DNA of 64,000 nt, taken from contig OZ231126.1 in assembly GCA_965153355.1 (NCBI GenBank), positions 9,734,001-9,798,000 on the forward strand, given 5' to 3'. The notes beneath the pieces are model-generated. The model was given only the letters and a program-made list of their open reading frames with translations. It was not told the origin of the DNA and made no database searches. The stretch comes from Flaccisagitta enflata. Lineage: Eukaryota. Shown in pieces: positions 320 through 32,500 of this stretch; position 1 is the stretch's first letter, and each line of letters opens with the position of its first letter. Both the position numbers and the translations under genes were made by a program.

Positions 320-12226
<11,907 letters not shown>

Positions 12227-12591
12227 TTTTAGGTCGGAAAATCTTAGATGCAAATACTAACATTAGGTGACAAGTTTGAAAATGAATCGAATGAGGATGA
12301 AGCTTCCCGTTTTACAGAGCTAGTCTTTTAAATGAGCAACGTTAATTGGGAATAGGATTATGATCGATGCGACTCTACCTAAGAAAATAATATTGTCAAT
12401 GCTTAAACAAAATCGCATTTGCAGAAACTACAATCATTCATCCGCTACTACTAACATTGAAAGGCTGTGCATTTGCATTATCAAGAGCAAGAATATTGGT
12501 AAGTCTCAAATATTTCCAGTATATTCAGTATACGCAGATGCTTTCTCTTCGAAATTAATTACGCATCTGCTCTGTGCAATTTACGTGGCAG

Positions 12592-13586
12592 TCATACTTT
12601 GATAAAATGGGAGAGCAACTCGCAGAAGAGATTTCGGCTCAGCACCGCTTTGGCTCTTCCGGTCTGCATCAGCTCGTCGAAGTTGGTTCCGAAGATGTTC
12701 TTGGCACGATTCATGAGGGTCTCGCTGTGGATCTTTTCAGCCACGATTAGAGCATCGACGACGTTGTCGGCGTTGATAGGCGCACCGGATTCACATTTCT
12801 GCTTCAGCTTTTCAACACCGTATTTGTCAGCGGCAACGAGCAAGTCCAACGAAACCTCGGCGAAATCTTTCGGCAGTGTGTCGGAGTAGAGGTACTGCAG
12901 CATGGCGCGGAAGACGACTGGTGTCACGTCGGGTACAATCACCTCGTTGGTGACGTTTTCCTTCGTTTCAGAGGCAAACATACGCTTGAAGTAATCAGAC
13001 CGGGCCGACAGAATGCCTTTGTGACCCTTGATTTTGTCACCTTGGACGACAAATGTGACATCCGCGTTTGGAGTAGATTCCAGTAAGTTGAGCAAGTCCG
13101 CGTGCAAAGTGGAGCCGCAGCTGCTAGATTCTTTGGCTGGTTGGGCGTCATTAGTTGGCGACACCTCGTAATCGATTCCACAAACGAATTTCCAGGTTTT
13201 TGCCTCCGTGGCGTGTAAGCTTTGGGCCACCCCCAACCACCATCAGATTTACCGGCTCCAAGGAGGTTGCTTTTTCCTGGCGTAGTCACGTTAACCAGGA
13301 TCGCTTCTTTGTCACCAATGAGCCTGAAGCGCAGCTTTAAAAATCTAACAGTCTTCGAAACGTTGACAACGTTGACGTAAAACGAAAGTTCCTTCTCTCC
13401 AAAACGGACTTCGAGAGAGAAGGTTGTGTGATCGGGATCATGACGGCAAAAGAACTCGGAGGACTTGACGGTTTTCTTTCCGGAAATCTTCGATGCGACA
13501 TCACGGATAGAGAGGGTATGTACAGTCCAGTAACGAGCCCAAGCTTGGGTTTCGGCGACTGAAGTGCTTTCCGCCAATTGGGACAT
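12592..13586 (-). pseudogene. MATH-BTB (SPOP-like) paralogue 1, intronless, single frameshift near 13207 (pseudogene or sequence error)
   Basis: MATH-like part MSQLAEST...GWGWPKAYTP is in one frame; EAKTWKFVCGIDYEV plus BTB (ADVTFVVQGDKIKGHKGILSARSDYFKRMF...LLVAADKYGVEKLKQKCE) is in another. The junction reads TAC ACG CCA CG GAG GCA with no intron signals. Confidence 0.75.
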
Positions 13587-13952
13587 CTTGTTGGAATTAC
13601 TGAGACGGACAATAAAACTGACAAAGGTGGAAAACATCAAATCGGACAAGACCTACATAATGATAAACGATTGTTGTGGAAAGGTATGTCAGCAACAGTT
13701 GAGGTTTTTGAAAGGTTAATGAGTCAGGTCGATTCAACTCTATCTACGAAAAATGACAAATATGGACATACAGGAATCAAACTCGCTATTCCTGTTCGAA
13801 AACGAACTACTCGTCTTTTAAGCAACTAGACAACAAAAGACTGTGCATTACTTAACAGTTGAGTTTACGGCAAGAGATGGTTCCATTACATCGTACGCAG
13901 ACACAAATCTCTGATTTTCACAATAACCGCGTTTTCGCATTCTTCGACAAAG

Positions 13953-15733
13953 TTAGAGTAACTTGAATAGCAGATTTTTGCTCAGCTCCGACTTGACTTT
14001 TTCGGACTGCATCAGGACACCGTAGCTGGCACCAAAGACATTCAGGGCACGCTTCATAAGGGACTCGCTGTTGATGCTTTCGGCCACCAGCAGAACGTCG
14101 ACAACATTGTCGGCGTTGATGGGCACATCAGATTCGCATTTCTGTTTCAGCTTCTCCGCTCCGTATTTGTCGGCGGCGACAAGCAATTCCAACGAAATCT
14201 CGGCGAAATCTTCTGGCAGTGTGTTGGAGTACAGGTACTGCAGCAAGGCGCGGAAGGCGACTGGTTTCACGTCGGGGACAATCACCTCGTTGGTGACGTT
14301 TTCCTTCATTTCAGAGGCGAACATTCGACGAAAGTATTCAGACCGGGCAGACATGATGGCTTTGTGACCTTTGATTTCGTCACCCTGGACGAAAAATGTA
14401 ACGTCTGCGTTGGAAGTTTCCTCCAATAGGCTGAGGAAGTCGGTCTGCAAAGTGGAGGTGGAGCCGCAGCTGCTGGATTCTTTTACCGGTTGGGCTTCAC
14501 TCGACGGTGACATCTCGTAGTTCTCGTACTCAAACCCACAGAAAACTCTCCATGACTTTGCCTCGGCGGAGTCTTCTGGCTGAAGCTCGTATAAGTATCT
14601 CCACCCCTCCCCTTCACCCTCTTTATGAATGGAGCCTTTTCGAATGGAGCCTTTCGATGACCAGGTTTTGCCTGCGATCAGTCCTTTGTCGCCGATGATA
14701 CTGACTTGCAGCTTTTGAAACCTTGCACTTTTTGAGGTGACAAAGACGAAAAAGGAAACATACCGTGCTCCATACTGGGTTGGAAAGATGGATTAATTCA
14801 ATTGAAAACAGCCATTTATATAGATTCTAATGTATCTAATAGGGTGGGGTCAGCTAAAAACTTATTAGCAACTTTTTAGCAACTCTTTAGCAGCTTTTTA
14901 GCATTTTTTTAGCACACATTTTCACTAAGGGGAACCGCTAAAAAATTTTTAGCATAAATTTTCCTGCTATAAAGTTTTTAGCACTTTTTAAAAGTGCTTG
15001 ACTGGTCAAGAATTGCTAAAACGAAAACTGCTAAAAGCCCAAAAATGCTAAAAAGTTTCAGGTTTGCCAAAAAAAAATGCTTCAAAAAGGATTGCTAAAA
15101 AATTACTAAAAAAAGAATTGCTGAAAAGATTTTAGCTAGAAACCTTTTTGTAAACAAACTTTTTTGCAAAAAAAAATCATATCAAAATGTTTTTAGCAAA
15201 ACACTTTAGCAAAAAAAGTTAAAGCAGGAATTTTTTAGCAATTATCTTTTTAGCATCAGACTTTTTAGCAAAAATGTCATTTGGCAAAAAACTTTTAGCA
15301 ACTTTTTAGCAAAAAACAAAGTTTTCTGCAGAAATAAAAGTGCTAAAATGCTGCTAAAATCTTTTTAGCACTCAAAAATCTAAGGGGAACCCTTCTGCTA
15401 AAAAGTTGCTAAAGTTTTTAGCGGACCCCACCCTGATCAAATGTTTCACTTTTGACAAAACACAGCGTTTCAAATAGCACATGAATGAACTTTTTTTTTA
15501 ATCCCTCTTACCAACTCTCTGCCAAACTCTACGCCAAAACAAAAGGTCGGTGATGCGGGATCGCGTCGACAAAAAAAGTCAAATGATACGACAGCTTCCT
15601 TCTCGGAAATTTTCGACGCGACTTCATCGATGCAATGGGTATGCTCTATCCAGTAACGAGGCCTTGGTTGAGTTTTTGCAAGAGAACTGCTTGCCGGAGT
15701 TTTGGACTTTTTTTTAAGAAAACAACTGAACAT
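13953..15733 (-). CDS. MATH-BTB (SPOP-like) paralogue 2, two exons (15733-15512, 14774-13953), about 347 aa
   Basis: Donor GAGTTG|GTAAGA and acceptor TTTCCAACCCAG|TAT are both phase 0. Exon 2 is open from YGARYVSFFVFV through SWRVFCGFEY into BTB (ADVTFFVQGDEIKGHKAIMSARSEYFRRMF, LLVAADKYGAEKLKQKCE). Confidence 0.85.
14841..15435. mobile_element. MITE with (C)AGGGTGGGGTC terminal inverted repeats and internal GCTAAAAA/TTTTTAGC repeats, inside the intron of MATH-BTB paralogue 2
   Basis: Left AGGGTGGGGTCAGCTAAAAACTTATTAGCAACTTTTTAGC; the right end reverse-complements to CAGGGTGGGGTCCGCTAAAAACTTTAGCAACTTTTTAGC. Confidence 0.8.
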
Positions 15734-15954
15734 CTTCTCGATCTAAAAGGCGACAAAATCATTCAAAACATGGATCCAAACTACTGGAGACTTCTTATTG
15801 CATAGTCTTATCCGCGGAGAGATAAATTGATAGCGAAACACGATTGCTGAAATTGAGAGCGCGTAGTCCGTTGATGAACATGTAATGGAGGAAAAAGGGA
15901 AAAACTGATCGAATAAGTAATAGACAGTATCACGCATTTTGTATAACAATCCAC

Positions 15955-16908
15955 TCATTCTTTAAAGAAAGACAGCAATTCGAAAAACAGACTTTTGCTC
16001 AACTTCTCCTTCGCCTCCTCCGATTGCATCATGAAGTCGAAGTTGGATTTGAAGACCTTCCTGGCGCGCACCATCAATCTCTTGCAATCGATCTTTTCCG
16101 CCATATTGAGAGCGTCGACGACATTGTTGACGTCGAGAGGCGCGTCTGATTCGCATTTCTGCTTCAGTTTTTTGACGCCGTATTTGTCGGCGGCGACGAG
16201 GAGATCTAACGAAACTTCGGCGAAATCTTTGGGCAGCGTATCGGAGTATAGAAACTGCAGCATAGCCCGGAAAACATTCGGTTTAAAGTCCGGCACTTTT
16301 ACCTCGTTGGACAAGCACTCCTGAGTGTCGGTTTTAAACATCTTTCGAAAGTAGTCGCATCGAGCGGAGTGGACGCCTTTGTGAGCCTTGATTCGTTCTC
16401 CCTGTACCACGAACGTGATGTCGGCGTTATCCTCCGTTTCGAGCAGCTTCAGCAGGTCCGTATGCAAGGTGGACTTTTTCGGCGCTGCCTCATCTTCTAG
16501 TTCGGCCTTTTCGATAACTTTGTATTCGATGTCGCAGAGAAATCTCCAGCTTGTTGCCATGTTGGCTTCCGTTGGTTTGAACAGGTCTTCTCCGGTGTAT
16601 GAATTAACTTTTAGCGTGTCGTTGGAATATTCTTTAAGGGCAAGTTTCTCTCCTGCCTCATTGAATAGTTTCAACGTGTAGTTTATCAGAACCGGTTTGT
16701 CCTTAACATGAAGATAGACGGAGAATTCGCCATCATTCAGTCCAAAGTCCAAAAACAACTTGAAATTTGGAGAGCGGGGGTCGTGTGGACAGAAAAACCA
16801 TTCGGTCTGTTCTTCAGCAAGGTTGGCAAACTTGTCTGCGATATCGAAAAGGGCGACGGTGTGAACGATCCTGTGCCAAACCCCAGCATTGGCACTATTT
16901 TCACCCAT
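15955..16908 (-). CDS. MATH-BTB (SPOP-like) paralogue 3, intronless, 317 aa
   Basis: Single ORF with a MATH-like N-terminus (FFCPHDP...FKLFLDFG...FSVYLHV) and BTB (ADITFVVQGERIKAHKGVHSARCDYFRKMF, LLVAADKYGVKKLKQKCE). Confidence 0.9.
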   Translation of the reverse strand: MGENSANAGVWHRIVHTVALFDIADKFANLAEEQTEWFFCPHDPRSPNFKLFLDFGLNDGEFSVYLHVKDKPVLINYTLKLFNEAGEKLALKEYSNDTLKVNSYTGEDLFKPTEANMATSWRFLCDIEYKVIEKAELEDEAAPKKSTLHTDLLKLLETEDNADITFVVQGERIKAHKGVHSARCDYFRKMFKTDTQECLSNEVKVPDFKPNVFRAMLQFLYSDTLPKDFAEVSLDLLVAADKYGVKKLKQKCESDAPLDVNNVVDALNMAEKIDCKRLMVRARKVFKSNFDFMMQSEEAKEKLSKSLFFELLSFFKE

Positions 16909-17158
16909 TTTTTGTGAGAGGTGACTTCTTATTTAGGTTAAGTAACCAAAGAATTATCAACTAGCGCCTAAAAGGAGAAAATAAAGATGACGATAAATAT
17001 CAAGTAGCAACAGCAGTAAAACAAATGTCACAGTGGAGGTAAGGCAGATCAGCAAGGGAGCGATTTCAACCGGGGAAACAACGAATCTTCACAGAACGGA
17101 CCATGACTACTAAATACCCTCATCAATCAGAGCCAACTTCGCGATATAGTTAAATCGA

Positions 17159-20100
17159 TTATGCCAAAAATTCCGTAGAAACAATCAAAAACGTGAAATC
17201 ACCAGTCCCAGCCTCCGCCACCGCTGATGCTTCCGCCTCCGCCATTGTCGATATTCCTCCATTCTTGACTCGCAAAATGCCAAATTCGAGCAGCGAAGGT
17301 CGACCTTTGGCAGTTTCAGCCACGAGGCGTTGTAAAGAGCGCTTCGTCGACTCAACGACCCGCTGGGCGCCTTGAAGGACGACTCCTGTTGGGTTGGAGA
17401 CGCTCGTCGACGAAGATTGAAAAGCGGAAGCGGCTCTTCCCCGTTGGCACTGACGAAACGATTGGAGGAGGAAAGAATTGTCGACTGAAACGTTGCGCAA
17501 TTCGCCGGTGGAGTCCTTTAAGGACAGGCTCAACGATGGGAAGAAACAAGGAGATAACATCGCGGAGGAGGAGCGAGGGAGGCTGCTCGCAGATTTGGGA
17601 TCGAGTAATGAACGAATCAACGGAGGAGGAGGAAGAGCGATATCTTCATGCGAGACAGCGGATCCCGCAGCGGAAGCCGCAGCGACGGAAGTGGCATTAC
17701 ATCCTTCCATCCACTGTGCACATTTGGGGCAAAATAAGGTGGCACCAACGACGTTTGGTAACGTCAATCTCAAATGCCTTAGAGTCGCCTTCGTCGCCAA
17801 TGTCAAACGTTTCTCCAAGATTGGATCGTTCGCCGCCGCTTGGTCGGTGGCGGCTGCTGCAGCGACTGCCGTGTCGGCGACCTCAAGGCCACTCATGCTC
17901 AGGTTCCCATCTTCGGCGTTAGCGACCAATTTTTGAGATTGAGTTCTGCCACCAATTGACGAGGAAGTCACGCACAAACTGCAAATTTAGTGAAGGTAAA
18001 GAGTGACTAGAATTTTGCTTTACAGTCAATCACTTTGGACGTGATGTTGAATTGTATTTCAAGTAATCGTGTATATATTTCATTTCACAAAGGCATATCT
18101 CTACACCTCTTCTTCCCTAAAATGTCAAAACTGACCTGTCCGCGGTGACGTCCTGATCTTCTGCGTTCAGGAACACCCGATTTTCGATGGCGGAATCACT
18201 GGCTTTCCATTTGACGCCGCCGCCGCCGCCAACGCCGTCGCTGATGCCATCATAAGTTGCATCAAGGCCGGCTTTGTGTTCATCGGTGGGATCGACGAGA
18301 GCGGTGGTAGTCAGCAGGACATGGTCAAGTGCAACGGAGTCGAGAGAATTCGCGTCGCGCTCCTGAGACTCGGTTATGACAGAAGAGGCGAAATGATGGG
18401 AAGAAAAGCGCAGTTCACAACTTTTGCATGCGAAAAACAAATCGCTCGGAAAAGGTTGTTGTTGTTGTTGCTGTGGTTGTTGTTGCGGTTGTTGTTGTTG
18501 TTGCTGTTCCTGCGATTGTTGTTCTTGTTCCGAGTGCTCGCCAAACTGTACCCCGGAAAGTGCGGCTTCGGTTTTAAAGAAAGCTCTGCCTAGTCTCGAG
18601 TGCATTCGAGGATCCGCGACTTCCGTCAGCCGGGAGAAAACCGCCGATGGGAGGAAAGACGGAGACAGGCGCGTGCAAGCTGGCAATGCGGGGGTGGCGG
18701 CGGTGGCGGGGGCGGCGGTGGCTGTGGGAGTGGTGGTATGAGTGGAACGCGGCTTTGGCGGTCGCGAGGCAACACGAGCGTCATTGGCCTTTGCAGAGGC
18801 TGAGGTTGTTGTTTGGACGCGAGAGTCAGTCGCTGTTTGGATGCGTGAATTAGTCGTTCGGATGCGATGTGGTTGATCATGGTTGGTTTTGGAAGTGCGT
18901 TCAGAGGGAATTGGTTCTGATGATGAAGGCGCCCTGATCGATATACAAATGAGTGAGTTTCCGCTTTCGGGAATGGACCAACCAGTTTAGTAATGGAAAA
19001 GTTTGAACTGTACGAACCAAACCTATGGTTACTGGCAATTTGAAACTGATGTTCAAGAACAGTAGAAGTTAGCAAAAACTAAAGATATTCATGTATCTGA
19101 AATCAAGTTTCGTTTATCCTATTTCATGATCGCAATAAAGACAGTACAGTATCAAAAATGCCATTAAATGGAGATAGAGATATGTTCAATAAATCACAGA
19201 ATGCTGCCTACCATCATCGTCAATTCCATCACAAAATGGTAACCATAACGAGTCATGGCACAATCAATCCATTCCCGAATGGACTTACTCATTGACGGGC
19301 TGCACATCCGTAGCGGAGTCAATTGCCGTAGCGGCAGCGGAGGCGTTGGTCCTTTCGACGTTATTGTCCACCCTTTTCTCATTTCCTGTGATGCGAGGGG
19401 CGTCTGTCGTCGTCGTTATCCCACCCTCGGAATTGGTCGTTTCCAGATTTGCTGTCTGTCCATTTTCTCTTTCCTCAGCCTCCTGGATTCTGCGCAAAAC
19501 GTCGTCATCGACGGCAGAGAAAGTGAAGGAGTGATCTCTGCGTCTACTGCCGCTGCTTACTGAATTAACGCTTGTTGCTGCCGCTTCTCCGCTTCCTCCC
19601 GCGACGCGAGACATGAGTTGCTGAGAGCCAATGGAGGAAAACGACGCGAGATCCGCCAAAGCGTTCAAGGAAGAGGAAGTTCCTACTCCAGAACCGACAG
19701 AACTGCCTTGACCATCTACTTCGGCTGTCGTCGTCGTCGTCGTCGTCGGACGCAGCACGCGAAGAGCATCTGCCAACCTCGTCTTCAGCGCCTCTCCGAT
19801 GGGATTTCCGTCTTGCAAAATGATCACTCCGCGTCCGAATCTCGTTCCCGATCTGAGATTGAGTTCGTGCATCGTCGGTCGGTGGTCGTTGGGATCGTAC
19901 ACGCGATGACGAGACACGTGTACGTTCTTGAGAAGCACGTGCGAACCGGGACGGACGAGGGTTGGCACGGAACGGGCGGAGGCATCGGCGTCATCGTTTA
20001 CACTATGGTTATCCTCATCGTTGTCATTATGCTGATCCTCGTCGGAGATTATCGAGTGCAAATGATTTTCCCAGACGACGACGTCGACGAGATGATATTT

Positions 20101-23100
20101 AACGGCGTCGTAAATCGGATGATGACGACGAATTGGACCTGTTCGGGAAGTTGGAATGCAGTCGAGGAGACGCTTGAATAAAAGATAGCCAGCAGAACAG
20201 GAGAGTACGATGCAAAGAAAGATTCCCAGACAACAAACAAGCGAAAGAAAGATAGAAAGAAAGAAAGACAAACGGCAAAGAAAGAAAGACAATGACAAAG
20301 AAAAAGACAAAAGAGACAAAGAAAGAAAGAAAGAAAGACAGAAAGAGAAAGAAAGGGAGAAAGAGAAAGGAAGACAGAAAGAGAAAGAAAGACAGAAAGA
20401 GAAAGAAGGAGAAAGAGAAAGAAAGGGAGAAAGACAAAGAAAGGGAGAAAGACAAAAAGAAATACAAAAAGAAAGACAGAAAGAAAGAAAAACAGAAAGA
20501 AAGAAAAACAGAAAGAAAGACAAAGAAAGAAAGACACAGACAAACAGAAAGAAAGAGAAGATGAAGTACCGAAATAGAAAAAGAAAAATAGAGAGACGAA
20601 ACAAAGCCAGTTTCTATCCAATTCAATCAACTGGCGTCGATGCTCTTTCAACCAGCAGCCCTTCACCTCGATTGGTTTCCGCCTCCAAGTTCATCTCCCA
20701 CATCGGCAGCGCGGCTTGAGTCCCGTCCCAAACACGCAACAGAGCGCAAAGACCCGGATTGACCACGCAAACATCGACCACTTGACAAGCAATGTCAACG
20801 AAAGCCGGAGATCGTAGACGGGAAATGGTCGTCAAGTAGGAGGGGGAGGAGGTTGAGGAAGGAGAAAGAGTCACAGAAGCGGATGTGGGATAAGAGGCGC
20901 CAACGACGGAAGGGAAGAAGCCGTAATCGCGCGCCCATTGACGCAAATCCTCCAAAGTTTCTCTCTCTTTGTCCGTCAAAGGAGAAAAGTTTGGCGTGGA
21001 GGAAAGCGGAATTGGCGGAGGCAACGTCAGTTCTGGCAGTTGGCCGTTGCTGCGCCACACCAAAGATCCGAAGCCGTGGCGCGAAGCGCAGCAACCCTGA
21101 AGACGGCCTTCTCTGTCCATTTGAATCTTGACTCTGAATGCGTGAGAGAGAAAAAGGACAAGCTGTACAAAATATATAAAACGACGATTTTAGAATTTCA
21201 CATGAGCTAGGTGAAAACGGAAAAAGTTGAAATCCCATTTTCTGAAACGTTCAAATCCTAACGTTGGAAACCCAATTTCATCTTTGATTAAAACCTGTGC
21301 ATCCTAATAATATCTCCTCTTTGTTCGATCCTGGGCAGCGTCTCTCTCGAAGCGGCGAAAGCGATACATCTCAGCTTTTCCTTTTCCACGTCGTTTGAAG
21401 ACACGTCGCAAATTCCGAAAGCCAAGGACCAATCACGACCGGAAGCCACCTTCTTGGCCGAATTGACGAACTCCACGACGCCGAAGAGGTTAACGGAAGT
21501 GTTGACGCTCAAATTGGCCACGCGCGTGTATGAAGACTCGACGACGCCGCCGGGACGAGGCGCCACCGTCGCAGTTGGAGGCGTTGGAGTGGTGTTGGAT
21601 GAAGCAGTACCGGAAGTGCGAGGGACAGGTGACTTTGACGTGGAGGCAGGACTGGGATGCCCGTTATTGGCGGAAGAAGAAGAAGGACCCACGTTAACAA
21701 CGTTGTTGGTCGGCGTAACAGGACGTGAATTAGAGCCGCCAGGAACTCGATGAAACGATTCGGCGGTGGGAAAAGCGGCGGGCCGAGACGTTGCGGCGTG
21801 GATAGATGGCGCGGTGGTGGTCGTCGTCGCGGTAGTGGTGGCAGTGACGGGATTGGCGGTCGTGGTGGTGGTCGTGGCGGCCGCCGCGGTGGTCATCGTT
21901 TCTTGCTCTTCAATGGGAGTAAGTGGCGGTCTTTTCGTCGTCTTCCTCATTCGCGGATGAAATGGCTCCGTTCTGGCAGATCGGCCATTGTTTTCTTCAT
22001 CACCGACTTCATCGACATCCGCGGCACTGGAGGCACTTACCGCGGCCACGTCGACGGCCTTAGGAATGGTTTCAGAGGCGGACTGTTGTTGTTGTTGTTG
22101 TTGCTTAGATGTCGGGGGATTGACGAGATTGAGTTGTTTGTAAGGCGGTTCTCGGTCTTCCTCATCGTCTTCCAAGATTAGATCGACCATTTTGCGTTTG
22201 CCACCTTTAGATCCTTTCCCTCCTCTGCCACCACTTTTACCACCATCGCTACCTCCTCCTCCTCCTCTTCCACCAGCATCCCCCGCCTGCGACGCTGGCA
22301 TTTGCGTCGACTGGGCCAGCGGATGTTGTTGCGACCATCCTCCTGCCTCGCAGACGCTGCCTATTTCGTCGTTGGCATCTTGGTTGTGTTCGACGACCCA
22401 GCCGCCGACGGCTTGAGTCCGCTCTTCGTCCGTCCGTTCGTATGTCTCACCGGGAACTCCCCAACCGAATTTGTCGGCGTCCAATCGAGCGCTTAAACTC
22501 TTCATCTGAATGAAACAAGAAGAATTGGGGTGAGTTCCTACGAATCTTAAGTTCCTTTTTCCAAGGGTAACTTTATGAGTGCATGATTTTTTTTCCCCGG
22601 AAACCTTCGATGGGACTTTAACTCGATCTTGGTTTTAGTGAACAGAAGGCAGTTGGGTAAAATGGTTCACCTCCTTTTTAGTTGCGGACACGCAACTCTA
22701 TAAGAAGCTTTGTCCGTCCGTCCGTCCGTCCATTGGTCCGTCATGGTGATTGAGTTGAAAAGTGCGAAAACGAGCGTTTTTTATACTTTTTGTGCATGTT
22801 TGAGTGTTGGAAGTGGGTTGGGGTGTGGATGGGGTTGAATGCCCCTGCCCACCCGTCCGCAATGATATATATACCCCGCGTCACTTGTTTAATTAGATAC
22901 TCTACAACCCTAGTAGAGCATCTTGTTTTTGATGAGGACAATTCATTCATTCATTATTTTTTTTTCTTTTCTTTTTTATGTAAAAATCTGAACAGTATCT
23001 GGGTCCGCGACGGAAGGGGGTTAAAGATCACCAATTCCGTAAGATCACTATGACCAAAAGATCGCTAACCCTGTAAGTTTGCCAAAACTATAAGTCTTTA

Positions 23101-25227
23101 CATTTAGAGCCGCCATACAAAGTTTCATGCAAATCCGTTGAAAAATGACAAAGTTATGCACGTTTTTCACTCCTAGGCTAGTAGGGTTGTTGGGTGGTAG
23201 GCTGGTTTAGATAAATAGTGTGCGTATGTTGAGTTCTTCCATTTAGAGACTCCATACCAAGTTTCAACCAATTTGGTTGAAAAATATCCAATTTATGTAA
23301 GTTTTTACTTTTAGGCCGGTAAGCTGGTTGGGTGGTAGGTTGGTTTGGCCGGTTAGCATGCTCAAACATAAATAAATCACATACATGTGTTGAGTTCTTC
23401 CATTTAGAGATTCCATACCAAATTTCAACCAAATTGGTTGAAAACGCCAAAGATATGCACATTTATCACTTTTTCGTTGGTAGGCTGGTTGGGTGGTAGG
23501 CTGGTTTGACAGGATAAATAGTGGGCATATGTTGAGTTCTTCCATTTAGAGACCCCATACCAAGTTTCAACCAAATTAGTTGAAAAATAACAAAGTTAAG
23601 CAAGTTTTTCACTTTTAGGCCGGTTGGCTGGTTGGGTGGTAGGTCGGTTTGGCCGGTTAGCATGCTCAAATGCATATAAATCACATACACATGTTGAGTA
23701 TTCCATTTAGAGACTCCATACCAAATTTCAACCAAATCGGTTGAAAAATGCCAAAGTTATGCATGTTTTTCACTTTTAGGCCAGTAGGCTGGTTGGGTGG
23801 TAGGCTGGTTTGACAGGATAAATAGTGCGCATATGTTGAGTTCTTCCATTTAGAGACCCCATACCAAGTTTCAACCAAATTAGTAGAAAAATGCCAAAGT
23901 TATGCAAGTTTTTCACTTTTAGGCCGGTTGGCTGGTTGGGTGGTAGGTCGGTTTGGCCGGTTAGCATGCTCAAATGCATATAATCATATACATATGTTGA
24001 GTCCTTCCATTTAGAGACTCCATACCAAATTTCAGCCAAATTGGTTGAAAAATGCTAAAGTTATGCACATTTTTCTCTTTCAGGCCGGTAGGCTGGTTGG
24101 GCCGGTTGGGTTGGTCGGATCACAAAAATCGGATAGGATGTAAAGCGCCTTAACCTAGTACAACTTCCCACCAAATATGAACCAAATCGGTCAAAGCATA
24201 AAAAAGTTATCCATTTTTTAAAATCCGTGACGACGACAACGACGACAACGACAACAACGACAACGACGACGACACCCACCCGCCTTGAATTATAGTCCGC
24301 GTCGGAATGATATTCCGTCGCGGACAAAAATCAATTGTTGACCCGTTCCATCCCATCACTGCCTACAATGGCAAGTACGCATTACCTGTTGCATGGTGAC
24401 GTGATAGAACTTGGATGTCTGTTTGGTGAAGAGGATTTCCTGCATGGGTTTGTCTTCGTGAGTCCATCTGCCTTCGAGTCTGGCGCAGTAGAAGTCGTTG
24501 ACGACGACGACGTCTCCCACTTTGACTTTGGAGGAGAAGTCGTTGATGAAGTCATCGCCGACGACGTTGAGGGTGATGCGGCGAGGAGGTCCAGGAGCCA
24601 ACACGCTCCACTCATCCAACGTCAATGTCTGAACGCGAGATTCAGCGCCCTCGGGAACCTAAACACACGAAAAAGGGACCCCATGACGAGGGGTGGTTGA
24701 AAACGTCGATCATATATGATGCACGTGAACACTAGTCATTAGCCAAGAATCAACATCGTCACCTACCTAAACAATCGCTACTCCTGATCACTAGGATTTC
24801 CAGCAGTCACAATTCAATCACCACAGTCACACCGAGTCACATATTTCCAGGAATCACACAAAGCACTGGCGAAACAAGCCTCCTTCTTCAGAAGCCACAG
24901 TCATCAGCTTTCTCTTGAGCGCGATAATTCGTGACATATGATCAGTGAATAGGACATAATCCCGTAACGCGCGATCTTTATCTCGAGTCGCGTGGATTCA
25001 CACCCTCACATCTTAGTTTCGGACCCTCTCGCGCAGAGAAACACCCTGAAATCGCAGATTCGCACCTGAGCGGCGTATTTCTTGAAGACGGTGCCTTGGA
25101 CGTAGCGCGTTTTATAGTCGGCTTCCGCCTTCAAATACTTGAAGAGAACCGGGAAGCAGCCTTCAGGCAACTCGCGGCGAATCCGCTCTTGAATCGCCAC
25201 ACGATCCACCGTCGCTTTGTTCACCAT
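17159..25227 (-). CDS. POT1: Protection of telomeres 1-like multi-OB protein; 7 exons (25227-25066, 24658-24386, 22505-21295, 21133-20667, 20138-19289, 18933-18136, 17978-17159), about 1526 aa
   Basis: OB1 YTRVANL..VNLFGVVEF..LRCIAFA..LPRIEQRGDIIRMHRVKIQ; OB2 FVDIACQVV..LLRVWDGT..VDVVVWENH..LRSGTRFGRGVIIL; C-terminal LFCPKC and LSLKDSTGEL. All six introns are GT-AG, and the exons sum to 4581 nt = 1527 codons including the stop. Confidence 0.85.
23110..24330. mobile_element. Interspersed element with tandem 120-180 bp units and a terminal hairpin, in POT1 intron 2 (Helentron/DINE-like)
   Basis: Repeated GAGTTCTTCCATTTAGAGACTCCATACCAA and GGTTGGGTGGTAGG blocks; ends GTCCGCGTCGGAATGATATTCCGTCGCGGACAAAAA. 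Confidence 0.6.
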
Positions 25228-29583: not shown

Positions 29584-32500
29584 GCAAAAGAAAGAAAGAA
29601 CAAGGCCAAGTAGGCCAATAAGGTGCTACGTGTGGATCGTCTAACGAATGCGTTACCCAACCAACCAACCAACGGACACAGCCAGTTATAGAGGTGCTTT
29701 GTCGCACCTAAAAAGAAAGGCAGAAAAAAAGAAAGACAAATACACGAAGAAAGGAAAAGAGAGATAGAGAGAAAGAAAGACTGAGAAAGACTAGGAAGAA
29801 AAGGCTGAGAAAGATCGAAAGAAACTTAAAACTGTAATGAGATTGGAAAATGGAAATGACAAGTTCGGTTCAAAAAGGTCTCACCTTGACCAGAACCGGT
29901 AAAATACTCGGCAATTCCGATAGCAAAGCCTGTTGCGGCAAATAAGGAAGCATGGACGCGAGGGCATTGAGACGATGTTGCTCGCTCCTCTTCAAATCCT
30001 CCTCCTTCATTCTTCCTCTTCCTCCTCCATCTTCCTCATCATCGCCGTCTCTCTTCTTGGCGATCAAAGAAGGCACGGTTTGCAGGAAGAATCTTTGCTT
30101 GTACATTTTGCGAGAGATGGCGTGTTGGCGCACTGTGAAGACGTCTACGGCTTCAGCGAGAATCGTCACGAACCCGACGCGACTAATCATCGTTGACACG
30201 TCTTCGAGTTCGTTGGGTGTTGTCGTTGTTATTGATTTTGTTGTTTCTGTATTTGTTGGTGTTGCCGTTGTTAATTCTGATACTGTTGTTGTTGTTGTTG
30301 GCGTACTTTGCGCTGACGCTCCCTTTTTCTCCGATCTGCTTAACCACTGAATAAGCTGAGTAGTGAATTGTTTGGAGGCTCGATGACTACGAATGACGAG
30401 AGCCTTCGTGATCCAAATCCAAAGTCGAACTCCGTTTATGCAAATGAGATCATCATTATTATCATCATTGTCATCAGTTTCCATCGCCGAGTCGTCGGCT
30501 TCGTTCCCGGCGTCATTTCCGTTCTGACTCGGCCTCCTCGGCGCCGCGATGACGACGTCGACGATCTTGTCCAACGCCGCAGTCAAAGCGGCGTCGTTGT
30601 CAATTTTGTTGACGACGGCGGCGCTCAATTTGGCGGCGTCGATGGCGAGAGCGGCGTCTGTCTGCGGCGCCGCTGCCAGGCGGAAGACGGCGTCCAGGAA
30701 TTCGGAATCGGAAACGTGAATTTGATTTCCGCGCGGAAGCGAAGCGCCGATCGCCAGCAGAAGCGGGAACAAATCCCGACGGAAAATGTCACCAGGTGCT
30801 TCACCCAACATATGATGGCCCAATAAACCTGAGAACGAAAAATCGTCTTATTTTTGTTGTCATTTTTCTTCTTTCAAGTTAGCTATCATTAGTTGTCAGT
30901 GAGTAGGCAAATTTGGAGTAAAAAGGCTTTGAGCATTCAGAGACAGATTCGGTTTTTTACGTGGCAACATCTTAAGTTTTCCGTGCAATTTTTTCCAATA
31001 ATTCTGTTGTTTCACTGAGTATGCTGCAACTTTACCGATGCGAGATCAATACCATTGGTCATTTAACCGGTTTTCAATTAATTTAGGGAGTATAAAGCAT
31101 GCATAACACTTTAATTTTGCCACATTTCCGCTGCATAGCACAGTAAAGAACGATTTGTCAAATTTGGCGCTGTTCTGCACCACGACTTAACACTTACCAT
31201 GTGCCGTTAAAAACTCCTTTTTGTTAAAAACTGTCTTGTAAAGTTAATAAAAAGACCTTTTTAACGCTTTAAAACATCTAACAGAATGTTAAAAAGGTTT
31301 TTAACACACTTTTTAACAAAATGTTAAAAACCTTTTTAACTGGGTGTTAAAAACCTTTTTAACAAGTTAAAAACCTTTTTAACACGTTGTTAAAACAGTT
31401 TTTAACATGCTGTTAAAAACCTTTTTAACAAGCTGGTAAAAACCTTTTTAACAAGTTAAGAACCTTTTTAACAGGTTGGTAAAACAATTTTCAACACGCT
31501 GTTAAAAATCTGTTTAACAAGCTGCTAAAAACCTTTTTAACAAGCTATAAAAAAACTTTTTAACATGACTGTTGAATAAAAACAGTTTTAAACCTCTCAA
31601 AACGCCTTTAAAAACCTGTTTAACCACCATTTTTTACAGGGACCCTAGCTTTTTAACAGTTTTTAACAAGTCCCTGAAATAAAAGAGGGTCCCCGCTGTT
31701 AAAAACTGTTAAAAACCCGTTAAAAAATTTTTTAACGTTTGCCCCTCTGATTAAAGTTAAATGCGTGTTTACCTTTTGTTTCATTCCATTCGGCTATAGC
31801 CTCGTCTTGGTTCATGATTTCGACGACTTTCCTGATAAGCGCCGCTGCCCGTCTCACCACTTCCGGTCGGCGCAACCAAACAGTCGACTCCCAATCGTCG
31901 ATGAAAATAGACTTCACGCGCGGCAAAACCTGAACAGATGGTTCAGAGTGGGCAAAGCTAAGATGATATTTCGTTGTTTATCTTGGCGTCATATAGTTGT
32001 ATCCATTTCGGATACCGGTTCAGAAAGGAGTGTCTTGCGAGAGGGCAGGGGCAGCTATGAAATAGCAGGGGGCAGGGGCAATCATGTGGAGGGAGGGGGC
32101 AATCATGTGGAGGGCGTGGACAGTAATGTGGGTCAGCAGGGGCAGCAATGCTCGGCGACCCCGATTTCGGCCGACTTCGCGTCATCCCAAATGACACCCT
32201 CTTGTAGTCGTTCACCAGGCGACAATGAAAACCAACTTACTTTGTCCTTCAAGACTCGTTGATTGGCCGGATTGGAATCGATTCCTTTTTCGGCCAAACT
32301 GTCGAGACATTCCAAGAGGATGAGGCCGAGACAGGCGCCAGAGGAGGAAGAAGAGGAAGAGGAAACGGAAGAGGAAACGGAGGAGGAGGCGCCCTGTGTC
32401 TCGATGGCGGTCAAAAGTTTATCGGTGGCCAAAGCGAATCCTTGCGGCGTCACGCAACAACGACTCAACAACGAAGACAAATGAACAATGTTCACTGAAG

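What the first reader, a model, noticed from the sequence alone, without database searches (positions are those of the whole stretch)
22505..25227. POT1 carries an extra N-terminal RPA-like OB fold on a long disordered tether
Seen: two upstream exons (54 and 91 codons) splice in phase 0 onto the exon at 22505, whose ATG sits directly behind an acceptor (TTTCATTCAG|ATG). They encode RYVQGTVFKKY...TLTLDE...RITLNVVGDDFINDFSSKVKVGDVVVVNDF...EILFTKQTSKF, which by eye resembles RPA70/MEIOB-type ssDNA-binding OB folds. About 320 low-complexity residues follow before POT1 OB1. Known: vertebrate POT1 (634 aa in human) begins directly with OB1. Inference: a ~1526-aa POT1 with an added DNA- or protein-binding module, possibly a different telomere-capping architecture.
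Basis: partly seen in the sequence, partly recalled or inferred. Interest (0 to 1): 0.75.

Follow-up and report, generated by a model that had tools for sequence, protein, structure and literature searches.

The report
Ordinary four-OB POT1, long linker
This is the gene for the chromosome-end-capping protein POT1 of a marine animal; its 'extra' front domain is most likely the one that most animals are already known to carry and that humans and mice lost, and only its long flexible linker is somewhat unusual.

Summary
Seven minus-strand exons with GT-AG introns give a stop-free 1526-aa frame. It contains POT1 OB1 and OB2. The two upstream exons model as an OB fold.

The premise of novelty fails. 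A fourth, N-terminal OB fold (OB-N) is described for most animal POT1s, with primates and rodents as the exception (PMC8653790). Ustilago Pot1 has it too, with about 350 aa before OB1; there it binds Rad51 and not DNA (PMC9119445). The best structural match of this domain is a 771-aa chordate POT1 (TM 0.76; RPA-like rows 0.58-0.64). That the matched part is OB-N is inferred.

The 24386/22505 splice is not shown by RNA. Indirect support: the donor is conserved in 4 of 4 relative proteins, the 40 residues after the acceptor are 70% conserved against about 33% for the linker, and intron 2 is mostly interspersed repeats.

The mild variant is a 285-aa tether (213-281 aa in relatives) with short invariant motifs. 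No earlier scan note describes this. Verdict: new member of a known kind, low interest.

The parts
25066..25227 (-). Exon 1 (aa 1-54): start codon, N-terminal helices and first strand of the N-terminal OB domain
   Evidence: 43-48 of 54 identical in P0001-P0003; secondary structure from a low-confidence model
24659..25065 (-). Intron 1, 407 nt, GT-AG, phase 0
   Evidence: relatives' proteins run straight from exon 1 into exon 2
24386..24658 (-). Exon 2 (aa 55-145): core of the N-terminal OB fold (probable OB-N)
   Evidence: 73-76 of 91 identical in P0001-P0003
22506..24385 (-). Intron 2, 1880 nt, GT-AG, phase 0; the junction in question (not shown by RNA)
   Evidence: 531 nt remain without the large repeat; no AATAAA, one ATTAAA at 22893
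22982..24330 (.). 1349-nt interspersed repeat inside intron 2, with internal ~304-nt units and short inverted words near its ends; young non-autonomous element (class not tested)
   Evidence: 27 other full-length copies at 93-100% among 40 scored of 11931 candidates
22671..22890 (.). Second, shorter interspersed repeat in intron 2 (limits approximate)
   Evidence: blastn hits at 70-86% in several unrelated loci of the same genome
21295..22505 (-). Exon 3 (aa 146-549): conserved 40-aa block, tether, first half of OB1
   Evidence: PF02765 E 1.3e-12 at exon residues 327-404
22386..22505 (-). Conserved 40-aa block right behind the acceptor (aa 146-185), probably the tail of the N-terminal domain (inferred)
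   Evidence: 28 of 40 identical in each of P0008 and P0006, against 91 and 96 of 285 in the tether
21531..22385 (-). 285-aa low-complexity tether (aa 186-470) with short invariant motifs: PLAQSTQ (22322-22302), GKRK, EPPYKQLNL (22151-22125), FP..E.FH.VPG (21773-21738)
   Evidence: 73% of windows predicted unfolded, 12% bulky hydrophobic residues
20667..21133 (-). Exon 4: end of OB1, start of OB2
   Evidence: PF16686 E 3.9e-08
19289..20138 (-). Exon 5: rest of OB2, then low-complexity sequence
   Evidence: PF16686 E 9.2e-07; P0012 runs from exon 4 into exon 5 at the predicted joint
18136..18933 (-). Exon 6: low-complexity sequence and first CxxC (aa 1157)
17159..17978 (-). Exon 7: second CxxC (aa 1337), presumed C-terminal half of OB3, stop codon
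   Evidence: OB3 identity not confirmed

Best explanation
This is the animal's main POT1 gene in the ancestral four-OB layout: OB-N, tether, OB1, OB2, tether, split zinc-binding OB3. Shown: the open frame, OB1 and OB2, an OB fold in exons 1-2, and conservation of that domain. Inferred: exon 2 splices to exon 3, and the domain is the orthologue of the described OB-N. Mechanism, by analogy with characterised POT1s and not tested here: OB1-OB2 bind the single-stranded G-overhang (this genome is rich in TTAGGG arrays), OB3 anchors the protein to TPP1, and OB-N is a protein-docking module, not a DNA reader. As in Ustilago, where OB-N contributes to Rad51 binding, it would recruit or regulate recombination or replication factors at the telomere. 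The 285-aa tether lets it reach away from the bound DNA, and its short invariant motifs are probably further docking, nuclear-import or phosphorylation sites.
For: Frame and splice sites. POT1 Pfam hits; 1 strong PF02765 place of 14 in the genome. OB fold: VIA-align best Z 9.9 (rmsd 4.3, 97 aligned), 42 of 48161 chains at Z>=8, all top rows OB folds; 11 Foldseek hits at E<=0.001. Atlas: top feature hits are POT1 clusters (0.95, 182 of 256 shared); top structure hit is a 771-aa chordate POT1, TM 0.76 over 131 residues, in a part that is not named OB1, OB2 or the C-insert; the other nine rows are 0.58-0.64. Junction: 4 of 4 relative proteins stop resembling exon 2 at its donor and run into tails that begin with Val, as a GT donor read through would give (P0003 and P0007 are near-identical, so three independent tails). 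The first 40 aa of exon 3 are conserved almost like OB1. Intron 2 is mostly repeats. All 5 of 64 intron AGs that look like acceptors lie in the repeat. P0003 (exons 1-2) and P0005 (exon 3) both have a longest contig of 1821 nt, which would fit both with about 336 nt between. Literature: PMC8653790, PMC9119445. TTAGGG x5: 477 places against 3 control.
Against: No transcript across the junction was seen. No database protein found holds exon 2 and exon 3 in one chain; the relatives are short single-frame gene calls. No sequence similarity to any other animal's OB-N was found. The Atlas family PF29066 could not be named and might be OB3 instead of OB-N. My own model is weak (pLDDT 46, pTM 0.40), and in PDB searches RPA-type OB folds score above human POT1's DNA-binding domain (Z 9.1-9.9 against 7.7). 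The shared contig length is a coincidence argument; the contig was not seen. OB3 was not confirmed. The Met at 22505 is also present in P0004 and P0006.
Confidence: 0.84

Rival explanations
1. Both forms are made: the four-OB protein, and a three-OB protein that starts at the Met directly behind the acceptor at 22505 (internal start, alternative first exon or trans-splice acceptor). This does not exclude the best explanation.
For: The ATG sits directly behind the acceptor, and the same Met begins P0004 and the more distant P0006. A second ATG giving a three-OB isoform is suggested for cat POT1 (PMC8653790).
Against: P0008 is called from a Met three positions later. The relatives' starts come from gene callers that must begin at a start codon. 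Only about 310 nt of intron 2 are not repeat. Whether this animal trans-splices was not tested.
Confidence: 0.2
2. Exons 1-2 are a separate small OB-fold gene upstream of a three-OB POT1 that starts at 22505.
For: All database relatives are separate proteins: 175-179 aa for exons 1-2, and 300-451 aa for exon 3. There is one ATTAAA at 22893. A weak lone exon-2-like stretch exists elsewhere in the genome without OB1 nearby.
Against: The relatives' tails behind the donor are unrelated between the three lineages and 29-32 aa long, against 9 aa here, which is intron read-through. There is no AATAAA and no good acceptor outside the repeat. The domain's best structural match lies inside a POT1, and the order domain-then-OB1 is the known architecture.
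Confidence: 0.07
3. One reading: the exons are part of POT1, but the domain was newly gained in this lineage from an RPA70, MEIOB or similar gene, or by duplication of OB1.
For: No sequence hit to other animals' OB-N. RPA-type folds lead the PDB searches. Weak MEIOB_N hit, E 0.08-0.1.
Against: The Atlas ranks a chordate POT1 well above RPA-like proteins (TM 0.76 against 0.64 or less). The MEIOB score is under half the cut-off. The domain shows no profile similarity to the half of its own OB1 that lies in exon 3 (hhalign probability 0.1). Published OB-N models were themselves built on RPA70 OB-A, so an RPA likeness is expected for OB-N.
Confidence: 0.07

Closest known systems
Four-OB metazoan POT1 with OB-N (Myler et al. 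2021, PMC8653790)
   Same: N-terminal OB fold ahead of PF02765 and PF16686; cysteine pairs in the C-terminal part; invertebrate-type variable insert between them (180 aa between the two CxxC).
   Different: Much longer (1526 aa, against 771 aa for the chordate cluster). In that cluster OB-N must sit almost directly on OB1 (inferred from length); here 40 conserved plus 285 disordered residues intervene. Sequence too diverged for a direct hit. The linker lengths of the paper's invertebrates are in figures I could not see.
Ustilago maydis Pot1 (PMC9119445)
   Same: OB-N of about 120 aa within an extension of about 350 aa before OB1 (200-350 aa in basidiomycetes), so a long spacer has precedent. 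There OB-N shows no DNA binding, contributes to Rad51 binding, and its deletion shortens telomeres by about 200 bp.
   Different: Fungal. The extension here is 470 aa. Rad51 binding is untested here.
RPA70 (RPA1)
   Same: Four OB folds with an N-terminal OB ahead of the ssDNA-binding pair and a zinc-bearing C-terminal OB; proposed ancestor of POT1 (PMC8653790). Fold match Z 9.1 to 1fgu (rmsd 3.0, 95 aligned).
   Different: The DNA-binding pair here scores as POT1 and POT1PC; no RPA Pfam family was hit.
Primate and rodent three-OB POT1
   Same: OB1, OB2, C-terminal cysteines.

Membership tests
POT1 | OB1, PF02765, above cut-off | tested here: met
   48.2 bits against 29, E 1.3e-12
POT1 | OB2, PF16686, behind OB1 | tested here: met
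   33.8 and 29.3 bits against 27.2 in exons 4 and 5
POT1 | Split C-terminal OB3 with four zinc cysteines | tested here: inconclusive
   CxxC at 1157 and 1337; no OB Pfam or PDB sequence hit; single-sequence model unusable, pLDDT 37.7
POT1 | Binds telomeric G-strand ssDNA | not testable with these tools
   Only that the genome holds TTAGGG arrays; none at the 18 contig ends read
POT1 | Binds TPP1 through OB3 | not tested
   No TPP1 search was run
Four-OB POT1 (OB-N type) | N-terminal region folds as an OB fold | tested here: met
   Atlas model pTM 0.66 with OB matches; VIA Z up to 9.9 and Foldseek E 2.9e-4 on a weak model
Four-OB POT1 (OB-N type) | Domain is homologous to described OB-N | tested here: inconclusive
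   Best structural hit is PF29066 inside a 771-aa chordate POT1, TM 0.76; family name not held; no sequence hit
Four-OB POT1 (OB-N type) | OB-N and OB1 in one polypeptide | tested here: inconclusive
   Indirect support only; no RNA evidence
Four-OB POT1 (OB-N type) | OB-N binds protein (Rad51 in Ustilago), not ssDNA | not testable with these tools
   Bench assay needed; known only for UmPot1
MEIOB | PF24903 OB_MEIOB_N above cut-off | tested here: not met
   12.3-12.7 bits against 27
RPA70 | N-terminal domain specifically RPA70N-like (PF04057) | tested here: inconclusive
   No Pfam hit; Atlas feature score 0.81, a lead only; fold likeness shared by all OB folds

The most novel reading that the evidence does not exclude
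In this lineage of marine plankton animals POT1 has become a long scaffold. OB-N carries an extra conserved 40-aa element and hangs on a 210-285-aa tether whose invariant motifs (PLAQSTQ, EPPYKQLNL, FP..E.FH.VPG) dock partners not used by other POT1s. The conserved Met behind the acceptor may also switch between a four-OB and a three-OB isoform, a natural model for what OB-N does in animals.
Probability: 0.2. Interest if true: 0.4.

Novelty: new member of a known kind. Interest (0 to 1): 0.15.

Why it matters
It adds one more divergent animal POT1 to the four-OB pattern and fixes the annotation of this gene: predictors start it at 22505 and call the front exons separately. The function of animal OB-N was left open in PMC8653790, so conserved tether motifs are a modest lead, but this organism is not shown to be a better test system than a vertebrate that keeps OB-N.

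Tried and rejected
RNA: 22 runs were listed, with at most 0.21 of the words held. None could be laid on the gene, so they are no evidence and the junction stays open. Complex prediction of exons 1-2 with the first 45 aa of exon 3 was not available; no verdict.

Metagenome contig scans found no relative (162 and 94 pattern matches, 0 confirmed). The full HMMER scan gave 4 hits: P0003, P0009 (exon 1 read through), and P0010 and P0011, multi-stretch hits that I did not inspect. The exon-4 search gave 1 of 747 candidates, so no distant animal POT1 sequence was obtained. PDB sequence searches gave 0 hits for exon 7 and for the domain profile. PF29066 is not in the held Pfam.

My idea that the first 45 aa of exon 3 copy the C-terminal helix of OB1 was not supported: 1190 of 2000 shuffles scored as high. 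An FxxA, Rad51-type word in the tether (motif recalled) is not conserved in P0008 or P0006. The arthropod-type repeat TTAGG is at background (8 places against 9 control), so I dropped the idea that this extends OB-N to the arthropods that Myler et al. excluded; the phylum was not determined. No telomere array lay at 18 of 18 contig ends. The exon-7 model was unusable. My first seven-exon join had a one-base error at exon 4, corrected. The two earlier scan notes shown concern other POT1 genes and did not bear on this.
Full report
1. Observation. Exon 1 (25227-25066, 54 codons), exon 2 (24658-24386, 91 codons) and the acceptor-ATG at 22505 are as described. Seven exons give 1526 aa plus stop with six GT-AG introns. 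Pfam places POT1 OB1 at the end of exon 3 (E 1.3e-12) and OB2 in exons 4-5. This is the only strong PF02765 place of 14 in the genome. Two CxxC pairs (aa 1157, 1337) fit a split zinc-binding OB3, but OB3 itself was not confirmed. The genome holds 477 places of (TTAGGG)5 against 3 for the control pattern, so the canonical repeat is the likely substrate.

2. The upstream exons are real coding sequence. Three unnamed ENA proteins (3 of 86 candidates) carry exons 1 and 2 in one sequence, with 43-48 of 54 and 73-76 of 91 identities. That is as conserved as OB1 in relatives (60 of 78). The search with exon 2 found one other, weak place in the genome (E 8.4e-5).

3. They form an OB fold, and the best match is POT1. 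My own model of P0001 is weak (pLDDT 46), yet it matches OB folds: Foldseek gave 11 hits at E<=0.001, and VIA-align gave best Z 9.9, with RPA70 at 9.1 and human POT1's DNA-binding domain at 7.7. These searches do not separate OB families. The Atlas model (pTM 0.66) does better. By features the top hits are POT1 clusters (0.95). By structure the top hit is a 771-aa chordate POT1 (TM 0.76 over 131 residues, in a part assigned to PF29066), and the other nine rows are 0.58-0.64. PF29066 could not be named. OB3 is not excluded. No sequence-level hit to another animal's OB-N was found.

4. The junction. (a) In 4 of 4 relative proteins similarity ends at the exon-2 donor and continues into tails of 29-32 aa that begin with Val; two of the four are near-identical, so this is three independent tails. 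Here the read-through tail is 9 aa. (b) The first 40 residues behind the acceptor are 28 of 40 identical in both distant relatives, against 91 and 96 of 285 in the tether. (c) Intron 2 holds a 1349-nt repeat with 27 other full-length copies among 40 scored and a second repeat of about 220 nt; 531 nt remain without the first, like the other introns (157-528 nt). (d) There is no AATAAA, and one ATTAAA. All 5 of 64 AGs that resemble acceptors lie in the repeat. (e) P0003 (exons 1-2) and P0005 (exon 3) share a longest-contig length of 1821 nt, which would hold both with about 336 nt between; the contig was not seen. Against: no database protein spans the junction, and the Met at 22505 recurs in P0004 and P0006, so a shorter isoform is possible.

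5. The tether. Residues 186-470 have 12% bulky hydrophobic residues against about 30% in the domains, and 73% of windows are predicted unfolded. The length is 213, 268 and 281 aa in three relatives. Short motifs are invariant in 4 of 4 sequences (two of them near-identical): PLAQSTQ, GKRK, EPPYKQLNL and FP..E.FH.VPG. Their partners are unknown; reading them as docking, import or kinase sites is inference.

6. What is known. [quoted passage not shown] PMC9119445 (seen: listing, passages, section 6) reports OB-N in Ustilago Pot1 within about 350 aa before OB1, no DNA binding by OB-N, a share in Rad51 binding, and telomeres about 200 bp shorter on deletion. So both the domain and a long spacer have precedent. 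I found no statement on OB-N to OB1 linker length in animals in the passages returned for 'linker' or in the listings (listings only); Fig. 6 and supplement S7-S8 of PMC8653790 may show it.

7. Mechanism, committed (0.84 for the architecture; the functional steps rest on analogy). OB1-OB2 bind the G-overhang, OB3 binds TPP1, and OB-N on its tether docks a protein partner, most plausibly a recombination or replication factor as in Ustilago. It works like a four-OB POT1. Membership of POT1 is met for OB1 and OB2. Membership of the OB-N class is likely, with orthology and the splice left inconclusive.

8. Verdict. New member of a known kind; interest 0.15. The longer tether with conserved motifs is a modest lead. 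A side finding, a multicopy element of at least 19 kb carrying a RecQ-like helicase and a POT1-like OB exon, may deserve its own follow-up.

Noticed in passing
G000:C1:81428801-81448800 (L043-L044), C4:9992301-10012300 (L047-L048), also C3, C4, C6, C8, C9 (L015-L019, L035-L038, L041-L050); outside the window: A dispersed multicopy element, at least 18.9 kb shared between two copies, long blocks 91-99.9% identical among the 7 copies compared. It carries a RecQ-like helicase (DEAD E 1.8e-20, Helicase_C, RecQ_Zn_bind E 0.001), then a POT1-like OB exon (PF02765 31.4 bits, cut-off 29) and a Cys-rich frame, and an 1882-aa frame with no informative Pfam hit. More diverged relatives lie at L013 and L014. 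Ends and transposase were not found. One paper search gave 3 papers, none on this by title or abstract. Possibly more interesting than the finding itself.
   Followed up: partly
window 22982-24330: Young 1349-nt non-autonomous repeat with short inverted words near its ends and T/A-rich flanks; 11931 first-look candidates in the genome. The layout recalls Helentron-associated elements (recalled, not tested).
   Followed up: partly
L002 (G000:C1:102663251-102663487, -): Lone exon-2-like stretch, 34% identical over 99 aa to P0003 (local tblastn E 3e-12) in a 125-aa frame, with no exon-1-like or OB1-like match in the 16.5 kb read; probably a decayed duplicate.
   Followed up: partly
window 12592-16932 (-): Three tandem BTB genes that appear intronless (PF00651 E about 1e-23) and a short fragment near 15470-15742. 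The third copy is split over two overlapping frames (12939-13652 and 12592-13242): frameshift, small intron or assembly error.
   Followed up: no
window 11726-12256 (-) and 29870-30847 (-): The gene lies between an MMS19-like gene upstream (PF12460, E 5.9e-29) and an SMC-family ATPase downstream of the BTB cluster, both genome-maintenance genes on the same strand.
   Followed up: no
G000:C1:7.52-7.56 Mb and 109.7-111.3 Mb: Clusters of interstitial TTAGGG arrays, while none of the 18 contig ends read carries an array.
   Followed up: no
window 24659-25065 and 20139-20666: Relatives' proteins run through the positions of introns 1 and 4 (P0001-P0003, P0012), while other calls read into introns 2 and 3. 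This suggests intron gain here or loss there, if those are unspliced gene calls.
   Followed up: no
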